19,280 bases of DNA from Candidatus Zixiibacteriota bacterium (GTDB taxonomy: Bacteria; Zixibacteria; MSB-5A5; CAIYYT01), in contig JBECKX010000197.1 of NCBI GenBank assembly GCA_040235515.1, positions 1 to 19,280 on the forward strand. The letters are read 5' to 3'. The position numbers and the translations under genes are program-made. The notes beneath the pieces were generated by a model, which saw only the letters and a list, made by a program, of their open reading frames with translations, did not search any database and was not told the origin of the DNA. Position 1 is the first letter of the stretch; the number at the start of each line of letters is the position of its first letter. Of this stretch, positions 7,738 to 19,280 are shown piece after piece.

Positions 7738-8028
7738 TCGAGCAACTAACAAAACCTACAGGCAGAAACATTTCAACTGGGTGGGGACTCCAGGCCCCGT
7801 CATACCACCCTTACAGACAAATGGGATCCAGCGCCGGTGTACGTATCCCTGCCGGGATTGAATGGCCGAGCTACGCGTTCCCCATTGGAAAGGAGGTTTT
7901 CGCAGGCAATCAGGCCCGTAAACCTCCGAGGCGGATAATTGGAGTTAGTGCACTGCGCCTGCAGTGCCGTGCGCCTCGGAGAAGTAGTGGTTCAAGTGTG
8001 CGGGCGGCAAGCCCGTATGGGAGGAATT

Positions 8029-11000
8029 ATGAAACGAGTGATGATTGTTATCATCGCAGTGGCCATGTTAGCGCCGACATTGTTAGCGGCGGACCAGATT
8101 ATCCAGGTCAATCGACCAACGGACATTCCCTCATTCCTCGGCTATGTGCCCGATCGGTTCATAGTGGTGATGAAGTCACAAGTGGGGCCTTTGAATATTC
8201 AGATGTCAAGCCGGTCAGTCGCACAGATCGGCGATCCCGAATTCGACAAGCTATCCGAGCAGTTTGCCGTTTCAGAAATCAAGGAACAATTCCCGGGGGC
8301 ATCTCGATCCACGATGGCGCACGCGGATGAACTTGCGCGCTATCACAAAGTCACGATCAACAAAGGAACGCTCGAGGAGGCGATGGACGCCTACAGGAAG
8401 AATCCACTCGTCGAGAGCGTGGAGCCGATCGGCATACATGCCATGTACGCGGTTCCGAACGATACCTATTACTCGCCGTATCAAACCTACCACAATCAGG
8501 CGAATGATCACGATATCGACTCACCGGAAGCATGGGACATCGAGACTGGAAGTTCTTCCACCATCATTGCCCTGCTCGATTCCGGAACTCGTTACTATCA
8601 TCCTGACCTCGGTGGAGCCAACGCCTCCGTGTCAAATCCCGGCGCATCACGCGGCAATATGTGGATTAACAGCGCGGAGTTGAACGGCAGCTCCGGTGTC
8701 GATGATGATGGTAATGGTTATGTCGATGACTGGATCGGATACGACTTTATCGACGGTGTCAGCAACTGCTGGTCCGGCGAGGACTGTAACACCAAGGACA
8801 ACGATCCGCGTGATTTCAACGGTCACGGAACTCATACCGCCGGCATCATGGGAATGATAACCAATGACGGATACGGTATGGCCGGCGTGGCCGGTGGCTG
8901 GGCCAGTGGATCTCAGCCCGTCACCGCAAACGGTATCAAGGTGATGCCGCTGCGCATGGGCTACTCCTATAACTACCTTGGTCAGGAATATGGCGTTGTC
9001 ATGATGGACGCCGCCGCCGAGGCCTTCTACTACGCCGCCAACAACGGCGCCAAGATTGCTTCCTGCAGCTGGGGTTCCTCGAATACCGGCGGCATCGGGA
9101 CCGCGGCCAGTTATTTCATCAATAACGGCGGTATCATCTGCGTTGCGGCAGGTAATGATGGTACCCAGACCGCAGACTACCTGAACGGACGCGGGGACTG
9201 TATCTCCGTGGCCGCAGTCGACCAGAACGATGCAGCCGCGAGCTTCACCACCTACGGTACCTGGGTCGATATTTCGGCTCCCGGCGTCGGCATCTATTCA
9301 ACCTATCACGACCACACCGATCCGAATACAATCTACTGGGCGGCCCTCGACGGTACCTCAATGGCTACCCCGATGGTTGCCGGCGTTGTTGGCCTGATCT
9401 GGTCACACAATCCGACCTGGACCGCCGCGCAGGTCACGACTCAACTCTATTCCAGCGCGGACAACATCGATGCTTATCTTTCATCGCAGTACCTCGGAAA
9501 GATGGGCGCCGGACGCATCAACGCTTACAACGCGGTAAACACCGGCCCGCCACCGGCGCCGGTCGCCGAGTTCTCCGGCTCGCCCACAACGGGTACAGAA
9601 CCACTTACCGTGAACTTTACCGACCAGTCAACCGGTAGCATTACCAGTTGGGCATGGACTTTCGGTGATGGTGGTACATCCACCGCCCAGAACCCGTCGC
9701 ACCAGTACACCTCGGCCGGTTCATACACCGTGAGCCTGACCGTAACGGGTCCCGGCGGTTCCGATGGTGAAACCAAGACCAACTACGTCACGGTCAATCC
9801 CTGTACGACACCGACCGCGAATTTCGTGGGTTCACCCACCAGCGGTGATTACCCGCTCAATGTCAGCTTCACCGATCAATCGACCGGCGGCGCTACTTCG
9901 TGGTCGTGGAACTTCGGTGATGGCGGTACCTCTACCGCACAGAATCCGTCACACACCTACACTTCCGCCGGGAGCTACACGGTAACGCTCACGGCCTCCA
10001 ACGCCTGTGGCAGTGATCAGTTTGTCAGAACCAACTATATCACCGTCACGACACCGCCGTGCGATCCACCGGTAGCAGACTTCACCGGCTCGCCGACGTC
10101 GGGTACATATCCGTTGACGGTCAACTTCACTGACCTTTCAACCAACTCGCCGACGAGCTGGAGTTGGAATTTCGGTGATGGTGGCACGTCGACGGCACAG
10201 AATCCGTCGCACAACTATACAGCCGCCGGAAACTACACGGTGTCGCTGACCGCTACCAATTCATGCGGATCAGACGGTGAAACGAAAACCGCGTATATAA
10301 CCGTGAGCGAGCCGTCGTCCGACTACGCCACACTGCCCTACTCGACCGGGTTCGAGAGTGGTGCGTTCGATCAGTACTGGTTCACGCAGAGCAATAACTC
10401 TGAGGGCAGGATTCTGATCACGACCGCCAACTCACCACGCGGTACCTATCACATGACGATGGATGATAACACGAATGGCGGACTGTATGCACAAAATGAG
10501 GCCTGGCTGCGGCTTGACCTCTCCGGTGAGACCGCCGTTGAGCTATCGTTCTGGTGGAAGGAATTCGGCGACGAAAGTCATACCCAGGATGGTGTGTTCC
10601 TCTCGGATAATGGTGGAAGCACCTTCGTGAAGGTGTACAGCCTGATCAATGGCAGCACCAGTTATCAACAGATCACGCTCGATATCGACCAGCTGGCTGC
10701 CTCCAACGGCCTCAGCCTGAATAGCACATTCGTCGTGAAATTCCAGCAGTACGATAACTACAGCATCGCGACCGATGGATTTGCGTTTGATGATATCAGC
10801 GTGATTGCTGTAACGCCTCCGCCGCCGGTCGCCGAGTTCAGTGGCGCCCCGACCTCCGGCACCACACCGCTCACAGTCGACTTCACTGATCTCTCCTCCA
10901 ACAACCCGACTAGCTGGAGCTGGAGCTTCGGTGATGGTGGTACATCGACCGCTCAGAATCCTTCGCATACTTACACGTCGGCCGGCAGCTACACAGTCAG

Positions 11001-11865
11001 CCTGACGGCGACGAATGCGTGGGGAAGCGACGGTGAAACCAAAACCGGCTACATCACCGTATCCGATCCGAGTTCATCCGGTGTGATCACCTACGATGAC
11101 TTCGAGAGTGGAATGGGTAACTACACCGACGGTGGTGGCGACATGTCACTCTATACCGGTGGTACCTATGCCTGGGAGGGCAGCAACGCTGCTGACATCC
11201 AGGACAACAGTGGTGTTGCCTCCTCGTTCTATCATACCACTGGTTATGATGTGAGCGGCTATACATCGCTTGAGGTGGAATTCTACTTTGTGGCGATTAG
11301 CATGGAGCCGAATGAGGACTTCTGGGTGCAGTACTTCGATGGATCATCCTGGTTGACTGTCGCGTCATTCGCACGGGGAGTCGACTTCAACAACAACACC
11401 TTCTACAACGCGATCGTGACGATTCCTTCCAGCTCGTACAACTTCCCGACCAACGCCAGGCTGCGCTTCATGTGCGATGCCAGCGGCAATCAGGATGATG
11501 TCTACATCGACAACATCGAGTGGCGTGGAATCGGAAGCGGGGCATTCGTGGATGGCAGCGTACCTGCCCTGCAGGCGCGCAAGTCGGTCGCGGTGTTGCC
11601 GGATGACTACGTTCTGAACCAGAACCAGCCCAATCCGTTTAACCCCGTCACAGCGATCAGTTTCGGTCTTCCGGAAGCAACCCACGCGACACTGTGTGTT
11701 TACAATGTGCTGGGCCAGAAAGTCGCCACACTGGCGGATGGAGAGTTCCAGCCGGGCGTTCATCGCTTTGAATGGGATGCCCGCTCGCAGCCGAGTGGAG
11801 TTTATCTCTACAAGCTGGTAACTTCGGAGTACACCGAAACGAAGAAGATGTTGCTCCTGAAGTAG
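8029..11865 (+). CDS. Secreted S8 (subtilisin-like) serine peptidase with 4 PKD domains, two jelly-roll-like domains and a C-terminal T9SS/FlgD-like sorting domain
   Basis: Catalytic triad motifs LLDSG, GHGTH and GTSMA. Signal peptide MKRVMIV..LAA. Four PKD repeats (WxFGDGGTSTAQNPSH). C-terminus LNQNQPNPFNP..GVYLYKL..KKMLLLK. Start moved to ATG 8029 (GGGAGG RBS), giving 1278 aa. Confidence 0.93.
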   Translation: MKRVMIVIIAVAMLAPTLLAADQIIQVNRPTDIPSFLGYVPDRFIVVMKSQVGPLNIQMSSRSVAQIGDPEFDKLSEQFAVSEIKEQFPGASRSTMAHADELARYHKVTINKGTLEEAMDAYRKNPLVESVEPIGIHAMYAVPNDTYYSPYQTYHNQANDHDIDSPEAWDIETGSSSTIIALLDSGTRYYHPDLGGANASVSNPGASRGNMWINSAELNGSSGVDDDGNGYVDDWIGYDFIDGVSNCWSGEDCNTKDNDPRDFNGHGTHTAGIMGMITNDGYGMAGVAGGWASGSQPVTANGIKVMPLRMGYSYNYLGQEYGVVMMDAAAEAFYYAANNGAKIASCSWGSSNTGGIGTAASYFINNGGIICVAAGNDGTQTADYLNGRGDCISVAAVDQNDAAASFTTYGTWVDISAPGVGIYSTYHDHTDPNTIYWAALDGTSMATPMVAGVVGLIWSHNPTWTAAQVTTQLYSSADNIDAYLSSQYLGKMGAGRINAYNAVNTGPPPAPVAEFSGSPTTGTEPLTVNFTDQSTGSITSWAWTFGDGGTSTAQNPSHQYTSAGSYTVSLTVTGPGGSDGETKTNYVTVNPCTTPTANFVGSPTSGDYPLNVSFTDQSTGGATSWSWNFGDGGTSTAQNPSHTYTSAGSYTVTLTASNACGSDQFVRTNYITVTTPPCDPPVADFTGSPTSGTYPLTVNFTDLSTNSPTSWSWNFGDGGTSTAQNPSHNYTAAGNYTVSLTATNSCGSDGETKTAYITVSEPSSDYATLPYSTGFESGAFDQYWFTQSNNSEGRILITTANSPRGTYHMTMDDNTNGGLYAQNEAWLRLDLSGETAVELSFWWKEFGDESHTQDGVFLSDNGGSTFVKVYSLINGSTSYQQITLDIDQLAASNGLSLNSTFVVKFQQYDNYSIATDGFAFDDISVIAVTPPPPVAEFSGAPTSGTTPLTVDFTDLSSNNPTSWSWSFGDGGTSTAQNPSHTYTSAGSYTVSLTATNAWGSDGETKTGYITVSDPSSSGVITYDDFESGMGNYTDGGGDMSLYTGGTYAWEGSNAADIQDNSGVASSFYHTTGYDVSGYTSLEVEFYFVAISMEPNEDFWVQYFDGSSWLTVASFARGVDFNNNTFYNAIVTIPSSSYNFPTNARLRFMCDASGNQDDVYIDNIEWRGIGSGAFVDGSVPALQARKSVAVLPDDYVLNQNQPNPFNPVTAISFGLPEATHATLCVYNVLGQKVATLADGEFQPGVHRFEWDARSQPSGVYLYKLVTSEYTETKKMLLLK

Positions 11866-11947: not shown

Positions 11948-11981
11948 AAGGAAGAAGGCCGGCGCTTTCGTGCCGGCCTTC
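11948..11981. terminator. Probable bidirectional intrinsic terminator
   Basis: GAAGGCCGGC/GCCGGCCTTC 10-bp stem. On the minus strand it has a GAAA tetraloop and a TTCCTT tail. It lies downstream of the S8 gene on the plus strand. Confidence 0.65.
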
Positions 11982-12272
11982 ATGCTTCACCTGCTGCGAG
12001 TAGTGAAGTATCCAGTCAAGGCTGTGAGCAGTGAGCATTTCTTTCTGCCTGTGTCAACGATCTGATCCAGTTCATTTGCGCAGGCTCCGTGTCGCGATTC
12101 TCCGACAAACCGCGACACGGACAGGTCATCAGTCCCCTTTGCGCCGGGAAAATTGCTTTTCTTCGGCCAGCCCCCGAGGGAATACTCTAAATCGTGTTCC
12201 CCGCACTAAACTTCCCCTTTGCGATTACCTCTCTGAGTGTTCCCCTCTTTGGGCCCCTTTTCGATAAGTCAG
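11948..12272 (-). ncRNA. Candidate sigma54-dependent small RNA (~320 nt) with periodic GGGG motifs
   Basis: Bounded by a sigma54 promoter (12283-12298) and a terminator (11948-11981). No ORF of 60 aa or more on this strand. Repeated CG(C/A)AAAGGGG x3 and GGGGAACAC x2, plus a long hairpin at 12087-12120. Confidence 0.5.
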
Positions 12273-12282
12273 TTAACGTTAT

Positions 12283-12298
12283 TGCAACGGGTGTGCCA
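12283..12298 (-). promoter_or_regulatory. sigma54 (RpoN) -24/-12 promoter
   Basis: Minus strand TGGCAC-ACCCG-TTGCA matches the consensus TGGCAC-N5-TTGC(A/T). Confidence 0.75.
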
Positions 12299-12351: not shown

Positions 12352-12390
12352 AAAATGAAAAGGTCGCCGGCCTGTCGAGCCTGCGACCTT
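12352..12390 (-). terminator. Intrinsic terminator of cysK
   Basis: Minus strand AAGGTCGC-AGGC..GCCG-GCGACCTT followed by TTCATTTT, about 40 nt after the cysK stop. Confidence 0.75.
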
Positions 12391-12427
12391 CGTTTCCATG
12401 CTGAAACAAAAAACGAAACAAACCGTT

Positions 12428-13366
12428 TCAGTTCGCTCCAAGTTCGGAGTATGTCGGAGTAGAGAGGTAACGCTCGCCGGTATCGCAGATAAACGTGACG
12501 ATCAGTTTGCCCTCACTCTCAGGCCTCGCAGCAATTCTCATTGCAGCGGCTACATTGGCGCCTGCCGAGATACCAAGCAGGATACCTTCCTCGCGCACCA
12601 CGCGCCGAGTCGTCTCGATTGCCTCCTCGTTTTCGACGGTCAGGATTTCATCCGCCAGCTCGATCTCCAGGATATCGGGTTTGAATCCTGCGCCGATTCC
12701 CTGGATCGGATGTGGCCCTTTCGTTCCTTTGGAGAGGAATGGAGACGCCGCCGGCTCTACCGCAATCACGCGGAGATCAGGCTTGCGTGGCTTGAGAACC
12801 CTGGCACAGCCGGTGATCGTTCCACCCGTGCCAATGGCGGACACTATGACATCGACATTCCCATCGGTATCTGTCCAGATCTCCTCGGCGGTGGTCCTGG
12901 CGTGGATTTCGGGGTTCGCGGGATTCTTGAATTGCTGCGGCATGAAGTAGCGCTCCGGATCGGTGGCAACCTTCTCTTCAGCGTGCTTCACCGCGCCGGG
13001 CATCCCCTCCGCGCCGGGCGTAAGCACCAGTTGTGCGCCGAACGCTTTGAGCAGATTGCGACGCTCGATCGACATTGTCTCCGGCATGTACAACACCAGC
13101 TTGTAACCCTTCATGGCGCAGACGAAGGCAAGCGCGATACCCGTGTTTCCGGATGTCGGCTCAATAATGACCGTCTCCGGTTTGATCTTGCCATCCCGTT
13201 CAGCAGCCTCGATCATCGCCAGACCGATACGATCCTTGACCGATGAGCAGGGATTGAATGACTCCAGCTTACCCGCAACTCGTCCATGCAATCCTCCGGC
13301 AACCCGGTCGAGGTACACCAGCGGAGTCTTGCCAATCAGTTTGGTAATGTCTTCAGCGATTCTCAT
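12428..13366 (-). CDS. cysK: Cysteine synthase A (O-acetylserine sulfhydrylase)
   Basis: PLP lysine motif [64 protein letters not shown]. Confidence 0.97.
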
Positions 13367-13481: not shown

Positions 13482-13919
13482 CTATATCCAATACATCTCG
13501 GCAGCCTGGCCCGACTGCTCGATCACGTCACTTAAGGTGATGGCATCAAGGTTTGACTCAATGATCTTCGCCTGACGATCGATTACATCTGTTAAGACAC
13601 GCCCGACGCTATTCGACCGCCGCCCCAGCTTCGGATATCCGCCGCTCGACACCGCCAGGCTGCTCCGCCCCTCGCAAGCGAGGATTATCTCACGCAGGGT
13701 TATCTCGGCAGGTTTGCCGGCAAGTTGATAGCCACCGGACGCTCCGCGCACCGAATTGACAATTCCCATCGCCCGCAAGCGCGAAAACAGCAACTCCAGG
13801 AATCTTTGAGGTAGTTCCCGGGCGAGCGCAATCTCGCGGACTCCGATATGCCGCGTGCGCCCCTCGATAGCCAGGTGCACCAGCGCGATCAATCCGTAAT
13901 AGCTCTTGTTCGTAATCAT
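13482..13919 (-). CDS. Rrf2-family transcriptional regulator, CymR-like
   Basis: Rrf2 wHTH (KSYYGLIAL..REIA..FLELLFSRL..SVRGASGGYQL..EITLREII). Only one Cys, so no IscR/NsrR Fe-S ligand triad. C-terminal MYWI. Directly upstream of cysK. Confidence 0.9.
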   Translation of the reverse strand: MITNKSYYGLIALVHLAIEGRTRHIGVREIALARELPQRFLELLFSRLRAMGIVNSVRGASGGYQLAGKPAEITLREIILACEGRSSLAVSSGGYPKLGRRSNSVGRVLTDVIDRQAKIIESNLDAITLSDVIEQSGQAAEMYWI

Positions 13920-13953: not shown

Positions 13954-14334
13954 TAAAAATACACAAAACATCATCGGATTTACGTAATTTTGTTAGGGTG
14001 CTCCGTTTTCTGAACGAAGGCGAGTTGTTTTCTCATGGCAGAGGAAGAGCGTAGCGGGACTGTCCCCGGCGAAAGGGGGATAATTAAGGCTTGCTGCGCG
14101 GCGTTTGCAGACGCATATTATTGGTTTAAGAGGGTTTTGGGAGGCGCATTCTGTCTCCCCGACCTCAGAGATTTACAAGCCAGGACAAGATCAACACGTT
14201 CTAAGAACGAGTCAGAGCCTGGCAGGAGAGCTGCTCGAAGCGGCGGGAATCCTGGTAAGATCGTCGCCCGACTGCCTCTAATGACAGGAATTACAGAAAA
14301 ATCACGATCTGGAATAACACCCACAGGAGGTTCA

Positions 14335-15909
14335 ATGTTCTTTCGCACTTCAGCGAGCAGTAGTGTCTGGCTGGTAGTAGCAGCCTTGCTCGGTGCCGCC
14401 GCAGTAGCCATTTTGGGCGGTTGCAGCCAGAATACCAGCAGCACCCAGGCTTCCGTTTATCAGGATCCGCCGGAAATGACCGCGACCTATGATTCGCTCG
14501 AATCTCTGGCCGCCAATACCGGCAAGACACTTGGATTCGAAGACTATGAGTCCGTCTACAAGCATTTCATGAGTCAGTATCCCAATTCCACCCCGCTTCA
14601 CCGTGACTGGCAATCGACGCTCGATGCTTTCAATCGCAGTGATGAGAAAGTGGAGATGTACAAGAAGCTGCACGAGGACAATCCCGAGTCAGCGATGTAT
14701 GCCTATCTTTACGGGCGTGTATTACCGGATGGACAGGATCGCGAAATGTTCAAGCAGGCTATCGAACTCGACCCTGATTACTTCTGGGGCAACTTTGGAT
14801 ATGCGATAGTCTCACTCAGAAGCAATCCGGTTGACACTGCTGAAGGGATCAAGTATTTGGAGAAGGCGCTGGAGGCCGATATGACCTATCCGAGCGTCTA
14901 CACCCAGTTGATCAACATCAATGAGGAACGCGGCAATCTCGACGCGGCGCTCGAATATGCGAAAGGCTATGCCAGGACATCCCCGGAGAGCTATCGACCG
15001 ATCGAGGCTCAAGTCGATCTACTGAATCGCCTCAATCGCGCCGATGAGGCTGAGAAGCTGTTGCTGGATTTCGCCAACGCGCATGAAGACAATGGCGGCG
15101 TACGCACACGGCTGGTTGAGTACTACAAGTCGAAGGACAATCTGGCTGAGGCGCTGAAGTGGCAATACCAGGTTGTGAAGATTTCGCGCGATCCTGATGC
15201 GGCGCTGGTTGATGTCGCCAAGCTGCACCTCGCTATGAATCAGGCTGATTCGGCTCTCTGGTACTTGAATGAGGCTGCCGGCAGAGGCTACGCCGATTTC
15301 CGTCGCGTCGCTAACAACCCGGAGCTTGCCGCAGTCAAGGAGGTCGAGGGCTTCGACAAACTGATGACTACGCTTAAGACAAACGCTGAGGCTGCCCGCG
15401 ATCAGCGGTTGGCAGGCTTCCTGGAGAATGCCGCCGCAAACCGCACCGAGGCAATCGATGGCAAGCTCAACGAAGTTGCTCCCACTTTTGCGTTCAAAAA
15501 TCTTGAAGGCAAGACAGTCGCGCTTGAGGACCTGCGCGGCAGCGTCGTGGTCATCGATTTCTGGGCGACCTGGTGCGGGCCGTGTCGCATGACCATGCCC
15601 GTGCTTCAGGAATTCGTCGATCGTGCACCGGCGAATGTTGAATTCCTCTCACTCAATGTATGGGAAGATGATCAGTCGAAAGTGCAGCCCTTCATTCAAG
15701 ACTTCGGTTACAGCTTCAACGTCCTCTACGGCGACAACCAGGTCGCCTCGGACTATGGCGTTACCGGAATTCCCACCATGGTGGTGATCGATCCGCAAGG
15801 CAAGCTGCAGTACCGTCACGTCGGCTACGATCCGCATCTCGACCAGATCCTGCTCTGGCAAACGGAACATTTGCTGAAACAGTCAGGCGGAACGCAAGCC
15901 AAACTGTAG
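14335..15909 (+). CDS. Lipoprotein with TPR repeats and C-terminal TlpA/ResA-like thioredoxin domain (WCGPC)
   Basis: Start moved to ATG 14335 (AGGAGG RBS). Lipobox AILGG/C. TPR-like helices (FKQAIELDPDY, YLEKALEAD). DFWATWCGPC and cis-Pro loop YGVTGIPT. Confidence 0.9.
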   Translation: MFFRTSASSSVWLVVAALLGAAAVAILGGCSQNTSSTQASVYQDPPEMTATYDSLESLAANTGKTLGFEDYESVYKHFMSQYPNSTPLHRDWQSTLDAFNRSDEKVEMYKKLHEDNPESAMYAYLYGRVLPDGQDREMFKQAIELDPDYFWGNFGYAIVSLRSNPVDTAEGIKYLEKALEADMTYPSVYTQLININEERGNLDAALEYAKGYARTSPESYRPIEAQVDLLNRLNRADEAEKLLLDFANAHEDNGGVRTRLVEYYKSKDNLAEALKWQYQVVKISRDPDAALVDVAKLHLAMNQADSALWYLNEAAGRGYADFRRVANNPELAAVKEVEGFDKLMTTLKTNAEAARDQRLAGFLENAAANRTEAIDGKLNEVAPTFAFKNLEGKTVALEDLRGSVVVIDFWATWCGPCRMTMPVLQEFVDRAPANVEFLSLNVWEDDQSKVQPFIQDFGYSFNVLYGDNQVASDYGVTGIPTMVVIDPQGKLQYRHVGYDPHLDQILLWQTEHLLKQSGGTQAKL

Positions 15910-15946
15910 GCGATTGACGACATAGAGTAACAGGAAACTTTATTTC

Positions 15947-15983
15947 AACCGGCGGATCAGCGCGATCCGCCGGTTTTGTTTTT
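15947..15983 (+). terminator. Strong intrinsic terminator
   Basis: AACCGGCGGATC-AGCGC-GATCCGCCGGTT, a 12-bp perfect stem followed by TTGTTTTT. Confidence 0.9.
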
Positions 15984-16168
15984 GCTAGCGAGCTCATCGC
16001 CCTCAATATGAGCAAAGCGCTAGCGCACTGTTATGACTTGGTAGCGTCTGATTAAGCAGTTGCAGCGAGTACAACCACTTCCTACATTGGCGCATTGAAA
16101 CAGGCGGCGAGGCGCCCAGCGGCTCGCCGGGTGCAAGTCCTATTACTCTCAGGCGAAATTGGAATACC

Positions 16169-17740
16169 ATGATGAAACGTTCGATAAAGAGAGTCGTTGA
16201 GGAATCCGATTCCCGCTCTCTCCTTAAACTGCTCGCAGTAGCTTTGTTTGCCATATCAGTGCTGATCGCTGCGACCGGATGTTCTGAAGCTCAGGATGAG
16301 ACATTCACCGCAGCCAGATTTATTCTGCCAGCGGAAGTTCAGCAGACGATGGACTCTGTTAACGCATTCGCGCGTGCTTCGGGCGGAGCAGCCTCGTTTG
16401 AAGAGTACAAGGCCATCTACACCCACTTCATTGAACAGAATCCGAATTCGGTACCGCTGCACATGGACATCCAAACCCTCTACAACAATTTTGGGAAGCG
16501 GATCGACGCTCAGGATGTCTATCGGGAGCTCTATGAAACCTATCCGGACAGTGCGATGTTCATCTATCTTTATGCCCGCACTCAGGTGGGGCCGATCGTT
16601 GACTCCCTTTACCACAAGGCGTTTGTGGCTGATTCCAACTTCTACTGGTCAAACTTCGCGCTGGCGTCGCGAATCTTCTCCTATCCGCCGTACGACACTG
16701 CCAGGGCAATCGAACTCTACAAGCGTTGCATCAAGCTTGATAACGCCTATCCGGCGCCGTTTCAACAGCTAGCGGTGCTGTACAAAGCGAAGGGTGACTA
16801 CGACAAAGCAATGGAGTTTGCGGACCTGTTTGCGACCTCCTCACAGAATCCGCGCACACCGCTTCTGCTGCAGGCCGATATCTGGGAGGCTAAGGGCAAT
16901 GCGGTGGCGGCGCAGCAGCTCCTTGCCGCATACGTTGTCGAAAACCCGGGTGATCTTCAGGCACGACACGCACTGGCAGACCTGTATGAGCGGCAGGACA
17001 GTCTACAGCAGGCAATCGCTGAGATGTACGGCGTGGCGAGAGATTCACGCCTGCGTGCCCTGCCCTTCATGCGGATCGCGGAGCTATACGGTAAAATGGG
17101 GAATGCTGATTCGGCGTTAGGCTATGTCCTGGCAGCCGCCAGAGTCGGTTACGATGATTATTACAGAATCGAAAACGCGGCAGAGTTTGCGCTATTGAAG
17201 GATGACAACCGGTACTCCGATTTGATCGCCTTTTTGAAAGAGCAGTCGGAGAAGCACACCGCGGATCGAATGGCCGGTTTCGCAGACCGCGCCGACTCTA
17301 TCAAGCAAGCGAATCTCTCCAACACGGTCAGTGAGCCGCTTCCGAGTGTGGGTTTGACCACCATCTCCGGCGAATCGATCTCGCTTGAGGCGCTCAGGGG
17401 GAATCCCGCCGTCGTCCTTTTCTGGAGCGCCTGGTCAGATCAGAGCCAGCGTGTGCTTGATCTCTTCCATGATCTGGAGGAACTGCGCCCGGAGGGTGTG
17501 AAGTTCCTGCTGCTCAACATGTGGGATGATGACCCCGAGGAGGCAGAGAAGTACCTGCGTGATCGAGGGTTCGACTATCCCGTGATACCGGTCGATGACT
17601 TCACTGCCGAGAAATTCGGAGTCTTCGGAGTACCCACCATCCTGCTGGCTGATTCCGACGGAGTCGTGCGGTATCGTCTCGAGGGCTATCAGATGGCGCT
17701 CGATCAAATCATCCTGTGGCAACTTGAGGCGCTGAAGTAG
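16169..17740 (+). CDS. Paralogous TPR-TlpA-like lipoprotein lacking the redox cysteines (WSDQS)
   Basis: Lipobox IAATG/C. Collinear with 14335-15909 (FEEYKAIYTHF vs FEDYESVYKHF, SAMFIYLYAR vs SAMYAYLYGR, LDQIILWQ vs LDQILLWQ). Active-site position reads FWSAWSDQS. cis-Pro loop FGVFGVPT retained. Confidence 0.88.
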   Translation: MMKRSIKRVVEESDSRSLLKLLAVALFAISVLIAATGCSEAQDETFTAARFILPAEVQQTMDSVNAFARASGGAASFEEYKAIYTHFIEQNPNSVPLHMDIQTLYNNFGKRIDAQDVYRELYETYPDSAMFIYLYARTQVGPIVDSLYHKAFVADSNFYWSNFALASRIFSYPPYDTARAIELYKRCIKLDNAYPAPFQQLAVLYKAKGDYDKAMEFADLFATSSQNPRTPLLLQADIWEAKGNAVAAQQLLAAYVVENPGDLQARHALADLYERQDSLQQAIAEMYGVARDSRLRALPFMRIAELYGKMGNADSALGYVLAAARVGYDDYYRIENAAEFALLKDDNRYSDLIAFLKEQSEKHTADRMAGFADRADSIKQANLSNTVSEPLPSVGLTTISGESISLEALRGNPAVVLFWSAWSDQSQRVLDLFHDLEELRPEGVKFLLLNMWDDDPEEAEKYLRDRGFDYPVIPVDDFTAEKFGVFGVPTILLADSDGVVRYRLEGYQMALDQIILWQLEALK

Positions 17741-17771: not shown

Positions 17772-19280
17772 CTAGCGCTCAAATCTGAAGAAATCGATGA
17801 TGCTACCGGCAGTCGTGTCGATTCCGATACCATAGTTGTCGTTGCCGAAGTTGTCGGAGTTGCGCAGTGGCTGATACCAACGTGTATCACCCATTGCGAC
17901 CGTGTCAGCGGCGATCGCATTGCTCTTTGGATCACGGCGCATATACTGATCTGTCCCACCCACATCGACCAGGATCGCATACGATTGTGCATACCAGGTG
18001 AATGGCGTTATCGGCCGTGGGGTGCGATAATCCTCGCGGAACGATGCGTGACCGAAGCCGTCCGTGCCACCGTCAAGCTGGTAGTAGTCATTTCCGCCGA
18101 AGTCAAAGAAGAATGAGTTGGAGCGAATCTGTGCCGTGGCGATCGAGATGATTTTGCCGCTGTAGGAATCATTCCCTTCCCAGTCGACCAGCAACGAATT
18201 GGTGAAATCCCAGCCGAAAGATAACCCCGCCCCGGCTGTTTCGAACAGTTCATGGCGATCATCACCCGTCTCGTCAAACATTGCCCCGATGCAGTAGTGA
18301 GCGCCGGAAGCCTGGGTGAAGTAGCAACTCTTGTAGAGATCATCGCCGTTAACATCATAAAGAATTCCGACACCGAACCAGTATCCGATCCCTTGCGAGA
18401 AGTTGCCTGAATAATATTCATCGTCGCCGTAGCAATCAATCAACGCTCCCAATCCCCCTGCCCAACTATGACCATCCGATCCATCACCGCGTCGACCCGA
18501 TCCGGCCCCCTGCGCGATATTGGCGTTAATCAATTCACCGGAGTGGTAGTCGCCGCGATTGAAGACACTGGCATACGGCTCGGCGGTGTACTTATCGTTG
18601 CCGCGATAATCAACCAGTACCCCGATCCCCCCACCGATGCCACCCATTCCTTGTCCATCACCGGCGAGGTAGTAGGTATCGCGCCCTTCTCGATCAACCA
18701 GCAGGCCGACCCCGAAGTAACCACAGCCCTGGCCCGAAACACTCAGCCGATAGTTATCATCTCCGGCGAAATCAGCGAGCAGCCCGGTGCCGAAGATCCC
18801 AACCGCTTGCGACAATCGATCCGACTCATAGGTGTCGTTGCCACTTGCATCCACGACCGCACCTACTCCACAAAGCCCATAGCCACAGATTCGCAAGGAT
18901 TGCGCGGTACCGTAGTGATCATTCCCCGCCAGGTCAAGGACCGCGCTGATTCCCTGAACTGGTGATGATCCACCACCCGCGCGATAGAGATCGTCCCCGC
19001 CGAAGTCAAGTATCAACAGGTATTCCCCCTCGCTGACGGTGTCACGGCTCGAGGAGTTGAACACTATTTTGCCGAGTGGCGTGGGAATCGAGATACTCTC
19101 CTGCAAACTGAGTTGCAACCCTGCCAGCCGCCTGGCAGATTGATCAAGGGTGGCGGCCACTTTGAAGGAGGCATATACCAACGATTGCCAGTCGATCAGA
19201 GCGGCACAATCATCAAACTGTGGATAGAATTTCTGGCCATCCCCCTGCGTGGCATCCAGATCAGTGATAGAGTAGAGTGC
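17772..19280 (-). CDS. Hypothetical Gly/Asp-rich repeat protein (12 x D-x-x-G-x-D-x-Y), 5' end outside the window
   Basis: The frame stays open from 19280 (ALYSITDLDATQGDG...) through the annotated TTG 19181 to the stop at 17772. Repeats include LDFGGDDLY, LDLAGNDHY, VDASGNDTY, ADFAGDDNY, VDREGRDTY and VDYRGNDKY. Confidence 0.85.
   Translation of the reverse strand, partial: ALYSITDLDATQGDGQKFYPQFDDCAALIDWQSLVYASFKVAATLDQSARRLAGLQLSLQESISIPTPLGKIVFNSSSRDTVSEGEYLLILDFGGDDLYRAGGGSSPVQGISAVLDLAGNDHYGTAQSLRICGYGLCGVGAVVDASGNDTYESDRLSQAVGIFGTGLLADFAGDDNYRLSVSGQGCGYFGVGLLVDREGRDTYYLAGDGQGMGGIGGGIGVLVDYRGNDKYTAEPYASVFNRGDYHSGELINANIAQGAGSGRRGDGSDGHSWAGGLGALIDCYGDDEYYSGNFSQGIGYWFGVGILYDVNGDDLYKSCYFTQASGAHYCIGAMFDETGDDRHELFETAGAGLSFGWDFTNSLLVDWEGNDSYSGKIISIATAQIRSNSFFFDFGGNDYYQLDGGTDGFGHASFREDYRTPRPITPFTWYAQSYAILVDVGGTDQYMRRDPKSNAIAADTVAMGDTRWYQPLRNSDNFGNDNYGIGIDTTAGSIIDFFRFER

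What the first reader, a model, noticed from the sequence alone, without database searches (positions are those of the whole stretch)
11948..12298. Candidate novel sigma54-driven sRNA with 40-nt periodic GGGG motifs (possible protein sponge or G-quadruplex RNA)
Seen: a near-perfect sigma54 promoter (TGGCAC-N5-TTGCA, 12298-12283, minus strand) lies just past the cysK terminator and points into a ~320-nt stretch with no long minus-strand ORF that ends at a GAAA-loop terminator (11981-11948). The 5' half holds six tracts of 4 or more G. CG(C/A)AAAGGGG occurs with G-runs at 12254-57, 12214-17 and 12134-37, and GGGGG at 12171-75, giving a ~40-nt register. GGGGAACAC occurs at 12242-45 and 12199-202. 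A 14-bp hairpin with a GGA-containing loop follows (12087-12120). Known: sigma54-dependent sRNAs with repeated motifs act as protein sponges (CrcZ for Hfq), and CsrB/RsmZ titrate CsrA through repeated GGA. Inference: this is an independently transcribed regulatory RNA whose motif (AAAGGGGA, not canonical ANGGA) fits no family I recognise. It may bind a CsrA-like or unknown RNA-binding protein, or fold into a G-quadruplex. A GTTTC-N6-GAAAC inverted repeat at 12392-12407 is at a distance suitable for an enhancer site. Alternative: the 37-codon ORF 12129-12016 (MTCPCRGL...) preceded by AAGGGG is the product.
Basis: partly seen in the sequence, partly recalled or inferred. Interest (0 to 1): 0.8.

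Follow-up and report, generated by a model that had tools for sequence, protein, structure and literature searches.

The report
Sigma-54 G-rich small RNA, likely sponge
This gap holds a conserved small RNA gene that matches no Rfam family, found in one family of uncultured Zixibacteria; its exposed G-rich motifs can pair with a second conserved, C-rich small RNA in the same genomes, so it may work as a decoy that switches that regulator off.

Summary
The letters are as described and the locus is a conserved non-coding RNA gene. A covariance model finds one copy in 17 of 21 family genomes and no strong match in 129 others. All 17 have a sigma-54 box, and 16 lie behind cysK. An enhancer-like site at about -150 is kept, and the last hairpin covaries (7 of 13 pairs). 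No Rfam match.

The usual form is 100-117 nt and ends at the 12121-12086 hairpin; this genome has an expanded form. The 40-nt period, a G-quadruplex, the 37-codon ORF and CsrA-type ANGGA sites are not conserved.

Best reading (45%): an RNA sponge like RosA/RsaI. A second uncatalogued, C-rich RNA (contig C169) is kept in 18 of 21 family genomes and 0 of 180 others. It is complementary to this RNA's conserved loop and to its repeats. Statistical support is modest (clade-level p 0.02-0.07, post hoc), and no expression data were found. Earlier scan notes hold no look-alike, only analogous RNAs in other lineages.

The parts
13482..13919 (-). Rrf2-family regulator gene, upstream of cysK (context)
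   Evidence: Pfam PF02082
12428..13366 (-). cysK-like PLP enzyme gene; conserved upstream neighbour of the RNA gene
12403..12430 (-). Conserved enhancer-like site TGAAAC-N4/5-GTTYC-N7-GTTYC, overlapping the cysK stop codon
   Evidence: 14 of 14 relatives of genera g2/g3 with upstream DNA, at -148 to -159; single such site in this genome; 15 of 21 family genomes. Activator binding is inferred
12392..12407 (.).
12352..12388 (-). cysK terminator-like hairpin (12388-12362) and T-rich tail
   Evidence: fold; function inferred
12283..12298 (-). sigma-54 -24/-12 promoter; predicted +1 at 12272
   Evidence: a box is present in 17 of 17 strong homologues
12078..12272 (-). The RNA as defined by the family (about 194 nt here; 100-117 nt in 15 relatives, 170 nt in G001)
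   Evidence: transcription itself not observed
12176..12257 (-). Expanded 5' part specific to this genome: four G4 runs and a long stem 12247-12235 / 12187-12176
12214..12223 (-). CGCAAAGGGG copy 1: 10-nt perfect complement of the C-loop of the C169 RNA
12143..12171 (-). Central hairpin between two G-tracts, matching the ancestral unit
12134..12143 (-). CGCAAAGGGG copy 2 (conserved motif 2); also the ribosome-binding-like site of the small ORF
12086..12121 (-). Conserved covarying terminal hairpin; intrinsic terminator in relatives; loop GUUGGGGAG in 15 of 15 g2/g3 genomes, GUCGGAG in genus g1
12016..12129 (-). 37-codon ORF, not conserved as a coding sequence
11948..11981 (.). GC hairpin, probably the two-way terminator shared with the convergent protease gene; possible read-through end in this genome
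   Evidence: also in G001; fold
7939..11865 (+). Convergent S8 protease with PKD domains and C-terminal sorting domain (context)

Best explanation
A stand-alone small RNA made by sigma-54 polymerase when one of the genome's enhancer-binding activators binds the site at about -150 (promoter and site shown by conservation; activation inferred). It displays G-rich, ribosome-binding-site-like motifs (AAAGGG[G] on either side of a hairpin, and a GUUGGGGAG terminator loop). Inferred function: these motifs pair, without Hfq, with a C-rich small RNA encoded at G000:C169:~14318-14158 (minus strand), whose near-invariant core is antisense to a Shine-Dalgarno plus AUG, and so release that RNA's mRNA targets. 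This genome's form has multiplied the G-tracts. That the RNA gene is real I put at about 90%; the confidence given is for the sponge mechanism with this partner.
For: (1) The partner is real by conservation: 18 of 21 family genomes at E<1e-7, exact 24-25-nt core in 18 of 21 family and 0 of 180 other class genomes, with its own promoter-like box and terminator. Both RNAs were found only in this family. (2) The most conserved loop of this RNA pairs in the same register with the invariant CUCACCCAAC of the partner in 15 of 15 non-g1 homologues (12 against their own partner, 3 against that of G020), p 0.005-0.11 each against shuffled partner cores. This segment was not part of the search that found the partner. 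(3) In both g1 genomes a repeated word matches that genome's own partner at a variable site: CGCAAAGGGG twice here, AAGGGCUCA twice in G001, where a 12-bp helix ranks first of 18 partners. CCCCTTTGCG has one non-coding occurrence in this genome outside the locus, in the partner (7 sites in all). (4) In genus g2 a genus-specific segment pairs with the genus-specific terminator loop of the partner (10 bp in G002). (5) Best contiguous helix against 300 shuffles: Fisher p 0.017 over 9 clades, 0.046 without this genome; own partner better than others, p 0.04. (6) No Hfq match in this genome. G-rich sponges of C-rich sRNAs are established for RosA (PMC8216469, passages read) and proposed for RsaI (10.1101/278127, passages read). 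(7) G019 lost promoter and 5' part, kept the stem and changed the loop, so the loop sequence is tied to the RNA and not to termination.
Against: No transcript or binding data. The statistics are post hoc, three energy measures were tried and kin are not independent: co-folding gave p 0.15 (clade level 0.07) and local hybrids p 0.037 (clade level 0.07); only 7 of 14 pairs beat at least 24 of 25 shuffles. The G020/G011/G016 clade, G003 and G006 are no better than shuffles. Motifs 1 and 2 are mostly not significant alone (3 of 17 and 1 of 17 at p<0.05 against shuffled cores), and the loop pairing is weak in this genome and G001 (p 0.54, 0.22). The 15 loop results reflect one ancestral state, not 15 tests. 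The partner was picked by a C-rich search (1 followed up of 16 loci), which inflates the match in this genome. By raw duplex energy it ranks 14th and 266th of 14,145 non-coding windows for the two repeat probes. Three genomes with this RNA show no partner (G017, G018, G010); in G017 and G018 the neighbouring gene is missing too, which suggests an assembly gap but does not prove one. Any G-rich RNA pairs with any C-rich RNA to some degree.
Confidence: 0.45

Rival explanations
1. A base-pairing sRNA that acts directly on mRNAs, for example opening C-rich anti-Shine-Dalgarno elements to activate translation, or sponging a different C-rich RNA.
For: A 9-nt loop conserved in 15 of 15 g2/g3 genomes on a covarying stem is typical of a pairing seed. 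Fifteen other C-rich, terminator-followed loci were not followed up. The second repeat here, GGGGAACAC, has no complement in the C169 RNA.
Against: No convincing leader with the complement among 18 CCCCTTT, 13 CCCTTTG and 15 loop-complement sites near gene starts (conservation of these not tested). Sigma-factor leaders are not C-rich here.
Confidence: 0.2
2. A multivalent decoy for an RNA-binding protein other than CsrA, such as one of the three RRM proteins of the genome.
For: Repeated motifs spaced by hairpins, and repeat expansion in genus g1, resemble protein sponges. Three RRM genes exist, one just behind the rpoN gene cluster.
Against: The motifs differ from one another except for the G run. 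Most homologues have only three or four G3+ tracts. No link to any RRM protein was tested; the RbpB/FopS papers were seen only as a search listing.
Confidence: 0.14
3. A CsrA sponge with non-canonical GGGGA sites, acting beside FliW.
For: csrA is present and in 194 of 201 class genomes. GGA occurs within motif 2 and at the loop end. G019 and G004 show neither csrA nor the RNA.
Against: ANGGA is absent in 11 of 17 homologues, whereas the flagellin leader here has a canonical AAGGA hairpin loop. csrA sits in the flagellar cluster with fliW, the protein-antagonist layout described in PMC4894983 (passages read). The RNA was found in one family while csrA is class-wide. G017 has the RNA without a csrA match; G009 and G005 have csrA without the RNA.
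Confidence: 0.1
4. The product is the 37-residue peptide, or the RNA acts as a G-quadruplex.
For: An AUG follows a G-rich motif at the same place in both g1 genomes. Six G4 runs here, G4Hunter maximum 1.36; 3 of 17 homologues fit the four-tract pattern.
Against: No AUG there in 15 of 15 other homologues; 1 synonymous and 5 non-synonymous changes; lengths 37 versus 27 codons. No quadruplex in the MFE of 17 of 17; eight homologues have only three G3+ tracts.
Confidence: 0.05
5. Not a functional RNA: a conserved terminator for cysK read-through plus an incidental promoter.
For: In G019 the hairpin persists alone behind cysK.
Against: Promoter, upstream site at a fixed distance and unpaired motifs are kept together in 14-17 genomes of three genera; a separate cysK terminator lies upstream of the promoter.
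Confidence: 0.05

Closest known systems
RosA of Bacillus subtilis (PMC8216469; passages read with 'find'; supplementary figures not seen)
   Same: Stand-alone RNA with three G-rich regions, preceded by A residues in one case, that pair with C-rich regions of other sRNAs; one G-rich region may double as the ribosome-binding site of a small ORF, as in genus g1 here.
   Different: RosA is sigma-A transcribed, about 229 nt and from Bacilli. This RNA has a sigma-54 box and enhancer-like site, is 100-194 nt, comes from a Gram-negative uncultured phylum, and its pairing is only predicted. No sequence homology was shown.
RsaI (RsaOG) of Staphylococcus aureus (10.1101/278127; passages read)
   Same: Two G-tracks bind C-rich sRNAs.
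   Different: RsaI also has a CU-rich region for mRNAs; no such region here. No Rfam match to any family at the gathering score.
RsaE/RoxS (Rfam RF01820)
   Same: Its CCCCUUUG motifs are the reverse complement of CAAAGGGG; the antisense strand of one homologue gave a weak hit (E 1.2, 16.7 bits versus gathering 79). The C169 partner has the same kind of anatomy.
   Different: The hit is on the non-transcribed strand and far below threshold; the C169 RNA has no RsaE match.
CsrB/RsmZ-type CsrA sponges
   Same: Repeated short purine motifs between hairpins; csrA present.
   Different: ANGGA (consensus recalled) is missing in most homologues; the organism has FliW.
Sigma-54 sRNAs CrcZ, GlmY, Pxr (recalled; Pxr and GlmY papers seen as search listings)
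   Same: Sigma-54 promoter with an upstream activator site driving a stand-alone sRNA.
   Different: No Rfam match; no Hfq match in this genome, which CrcZ titrates; different motifs.

Membership tests
Any Rfam 15 family | Score at or above the gathering threshold | tested here: not met
   0 hits in the window; only sub-threshold hits at E<=10; 0 hits at E<=5 in 13 homologous loci
sigma-54-dependent sRNA | -24/-12 box conserved at a fixed place before the RNA | tested here: met
   17 of 17 strong hits, including 10 of 10 not used to build the model; 0 of 7 weak hits
sigma-54-dependent sRNA | rpoN and activators in the genome; conserved upstream site | tested here: met
sigma-54-dependent sRNA | Transcript whose level depends on RpoN and an activator | not testable with these tools
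   needs transcript data
G-rich RNA sponge (RosA/RsaI kind) | Several exposed G-rich regions in a stand-alone RNA | tested here: met
   3-6 G3+ tracts in 17 of 17; loop tract unpaired probability 0.52-1.0 in g2/g3, the other tracts often partly paired in single-sequence folds
G-rich RNA sponge (RosA/RsaI kind) | A conserved C-rich sRNA in the same genomes | tested here: met
   found in 14 of 17 genomes with the G-rich RNA
G-rich RNA sponge (RosA/RsaI kind) | Complementarity beyond composition, specific to the own partner | tested here: inconclusive
   clade-level p 0.017-0.07 by three measures; several clades no better than shuffles
G-rich RNA sponge (RosA/RsaI kind) | Binding lowers the partner's level or relieves its targets | not testable with these tools
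   needs gel shift and reporter tests
RosA or RsaI proper (homology) | Sequence or model match | tested here: inconclusive
   no Rfam hit; RosA itself was not aligned, so only 'works like' is claimed
CsrB/RsmZ | Many ANGGA motifs in loops or single strands | tested here: not met
   0 in 11 of 17, at most 3; 1 in this genome
CrcZ | Hfq in the genome | tested here: not met
   no PF17209 match in a genome rated 100% complete
RNA G-quadruplex | Four closely spaced G3+ tracts, conserved and favoured over duplex | tested here: not met
   pattern in 3 of 17, in the MFE of 0 of 17
Small protein gene | Conserved start, frame and excess of synonymous change | tested here: not met

The most novel reading that the evidence does not exclude
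A complete Hfq-free sRNA-sponge circuit in an uncultured Gram-negative phylum: an enhancer- and sigma-54-driven G-rich decoy neutralises an ECF-sigma-driven anti-ribosome-binding-site sRNA, so two alternative sigma factor systems oppose each other through RNA-RNA pairing. The decoy has re-tuned its repeats lineage by lineage to follow changes in its partner.
Probability: 0.3. Interest if true: 0.8.

Novelty: new variant of a known kind. Interest (0 to 1): 0.62.

Why it matters
My paper searches found no study of small RNAs in Zixibacteria, and neither RNA is in Rfam. In the papers read, G-rich sponges of C-rich sRNAs come from Bacilli and Staphylococci. If the pairing holds, the same logic arose in a distant Gram-negative phylum under sigma-54 control, and the sponge-partner pair was found from genomes alone. 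Both RNAs are short, so the claim can be tested with two in vitro transcripts without culturing the organism. Even if the pairing fails, two new conserved ncRNA families and one activator-site motif remain.

Tried and rejected
Expression: no RNA holder listed, so no reads were laid.

A paralogue in this genome: blastn found none; models R1 and R3 give one match.

Range beyond the family: 6 weak hits in 129 genomes with R1 and weak hits in 13 of 137 genomes with R3, none with a sigma-54 box. Of 50 loci from two collection scans, 15 scored as family members, two of them new metagenome copies. Model R2 had its structure off by one column and was not used (rebuilt in 72).

Partner candidates rejected: a doubled CCCCTTT shared by the family is the reverse strand of a coding 3' end (that script stopped after 17 of 20 loci). 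The doubled motif on C77 did not recur as a shared element in that search and looks like a promoter. Sigma-factor leaders are not C-rich, so the lead from note e1-6779731 does not apply to them.

Other genes under the same enhancer site: none in this genome; 6 of 180 outside the family against about 20 control hits, none with a promoter.

Targets of the C-rich RNA: top duplexes include exported proteins, but a family search gave 13 non-self sites in mostly unrelated genes, so no conserved target is shown.

RNAalifold did not recover the central hairpin on MAFFT alignments; it rests on single-sequence folds, stable (below -7 kcal/mol) in 11 of 16 short forms. A conserved CAGGCYGTTG before the promoter is the arm of the cysK terminator, not an IHF site. 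A glycine-riboswitch, hammerhead or CRISPR-repeat likeness (recalled) was dropped: no Rfam hit and no array.

Full report
Setting. The stretch lies between a cysK-like gene (13366-12428, minus) and a convergent S8 protease (7939-11865, plus). The window is contig C140 of genome G000. Two record titles among the related loci name Zixibacteria; others carry other or no labels. The genome has rpoN, 17 strong matches to the sigma-54 activator domain, csrA and fliW in the flagellar cluster, three RRM proteins and no Hfq match.

Observation. All listed letters are at the stated coordinates. Six G4 runs and three AAAGGGG exceed shuffles (1 and 2 of 2000). Rfam gives nothing at threshold and only weak hits otherwise.

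It is a conserved RNA gene. A DNA search of 60 relatives gave one real hit, in the same-genus genome G001, at the same place. A promoter-plus-motif pattern gave five more. A model of the 3' core built from these 7 found single copies at E<1e-11 in 17 of 21 family genomes and only weak hits (6 of 129) outside. All 10 new hits have a sigma-54 box that the model did not contain; none of the 7 weak hits does. Such a box has 438 sites in this genome, about a 2% chance per 400 bases (my estimate). Sixteen of 17 lie behind cysK; the other is at a contig end. A second model over 150 phylum genomes added nothing outside the family.

Anatomy. Upstream site TGAAAC-N4-GTTYC-N7-GTTYC at -148 to -159 in 14 of 14 g2/g3 genomes with upstream DNA, with a 5-base spacer here; G001 does not fit the pattern. 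Then the cysK terminator, the promoter and the RNA: AAAGGG(G), a variable hairpin, a second G-tract, a linker, and a terminal hairpin followed by U's. The terminal stem is paired in 98.3% of cells, with changes on both sides in 7 of 13 pairs; 0 of 500 shuffles reach the covariation score (18 sequences). Its loop reads GUUGGGGAG in 15 of 15 g2/g3 genomes. These forms are 100-117 nt. G000 (194 nt) and G001 (170 nt) have added G-tracts at the 5' side, and G000 has lost the U-run, so it may read on to the two-way terminator at 11981-11948 (inference). G019 and G009 keep only a decayed hairpin behind cysK; in G019 the loop has changed. For G004 no cysK match was found, and in G005 the match runs to a contig end.

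Readings that fail. Quadruplex: none in the MFE of 17 of 17. ORF: only in genus g1, 1 synonymous and 5 non-synonymous changes in 15 codons. CsrA: ANGGA is absent from 11 of 17 homologues, while the flagellin leader has a canonical site and FliW is present; the csrA pattern in the family is mixed.

A partner. A weak antisense hit to RsaE showed that CAAAGGGG is the complement of that family's C-rich motif, which suggested a RosA-like sponge (PMC8216469, passages; 10.1101/278127, passages). A first search for doubled C-rich motifs found only coding DNA. A search of this genome for C-rich motifs followed by a terminator gave 16 loci, of which I followed one, C169:~14318-14158. It is conserved in 18 of 21 family genomes; its 24-25-nt core is exact in those 18 and in 0 of 180 other class genomes. 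It has an invariant CGTC with a TRAAC box 16-17 bases upstream in most genomes (ECF-type by recalled consensus), a long 5' hairpin, a C-rich loop, a core antisense to a Shine-Dalgarno plus AUG, and a terminator. No Rfam match.

For the pairing. The G-rich RNA's conserved loop pairs with the partner's invariant CUCACCCAAC in one register in 15 of 15 non-g1 cases (p 0.005-0.11 each); that segment played no part in the selection. In each g1 genome a doubled word complements that genome's own partner at a variable site. In G002 a genus-specific 10-bp helix forms with the partner's genus-specific loop, and in G012/G013 an 11-bp helix with its anti-Shine-Dalgarno core. Over 9 clades, best helices beat shuffles at p 0.017 (0.046 without G000) and own partners beat foreign ones at p 0.04.

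Against the pairing. Two other measures gave clade-level p 0.07; only 7 of 14 pairs clearly beat shuffles. One large g3 clade, G003 and G006 do not. Motifs 1 and 2 are mostly not significant alone, and the loop pairing is weak in this very genome. The partner ranks 14th and 266th of 14,145 windows by raw energy. Three genomes lack a detectable partner; in two the neighbouring gene, which scores E 1e-58 or better in the 11 other g3 loci, is missing too. All tests are post hoc on related genomes. No conserved mRNA target of the partner was shown.

Verdict. Shown: a conserved, uncatalogued sigma-54-type RNA gene with an upstream site, and a second conserved C-rich RNA in the same family. Inferred: transcription, activation, and that the first sponges the second (45%). 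It works like RosA/RsaI if so; membership by homology is not claimed. Paper searches for Zixibacteria with small RNA, sRNA or ncRNA gave 1, 0 and 2 papers, none on this by title or abstract (listings only); subscription papers and supplements were not seen, and the RosA supplementary figure with its G-rich sequences could bear on the comparison. Earlier scan notes gave no look-alike by place or sequence, only analogous RNAs elsewhere.

Noticed in passing
L273:1659-1819 (G000:C169:~14158-14318, minus): Uncatalogued ~160-nt C-rich small RNA with an ECF-type promoter box, a near-invariant core antisense to a Shine-Dalgarno plus AUG, and a terminator; 18 of 21 family genomes; usually next to tRNA-Ile and a short-chain dehydrogenase gene. 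Worth its own follow-up.
   Followed up: partly
L241, L245, L247 (about 1400-1600, plus; family f12): Conserved non-coding long hairpin with AAAGGG paired to CCCTTT, followed by a terminator that resembles the one studied here; no sigma-54 box; possibly a divergent 6S RNA (guess, not tested).
   Followed up: partly
L351 (G019) and L352 (G009), just after cysK: Two losses of the RNA gene within genus g3: promoter, upstream site and 5' motifs are gone and a decayed terminal hairpin remains.
   Followed up: yes
L173 (G000:C10:27742-27951): An RRM gene lies directly behind the lptB-rpoN-hpf-hprK-like gene run (names from recall of the translations).
   Followed up: no
L119:1440-1490 (G000:C32, flagellin leader): Hairpin with an AAGGA loop followed by two more GGA sites; with csrA and fliW nearby this looks like a Bacillus-type flagellin-FliW-CsrA switch. 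CsrA has a long C-terminal extension (116 aa).
   Followed up: no
L191 (G000:C77:48506-48533): Doubled AAAGGGG in front of a secreted-protein gene; looks like an ECF-type promoter rather than an RNA.
   Followed up: partly
window 14035-17740: Two adjacent TPR plus thioredoxin-like proteins, divergent from the Rrf2-cysK pair.
   Followed up: no
window 17772-19181 (minus): 469-aa ORF rich in Gly/Asp repeats with no Pfam match.
   Followed up: no
L259 (G000:C136:5297, minus): A sigma-54 box lies directly before an ECF sigma factor gene, a possible link between the two sigma systems.
   Followed up: no
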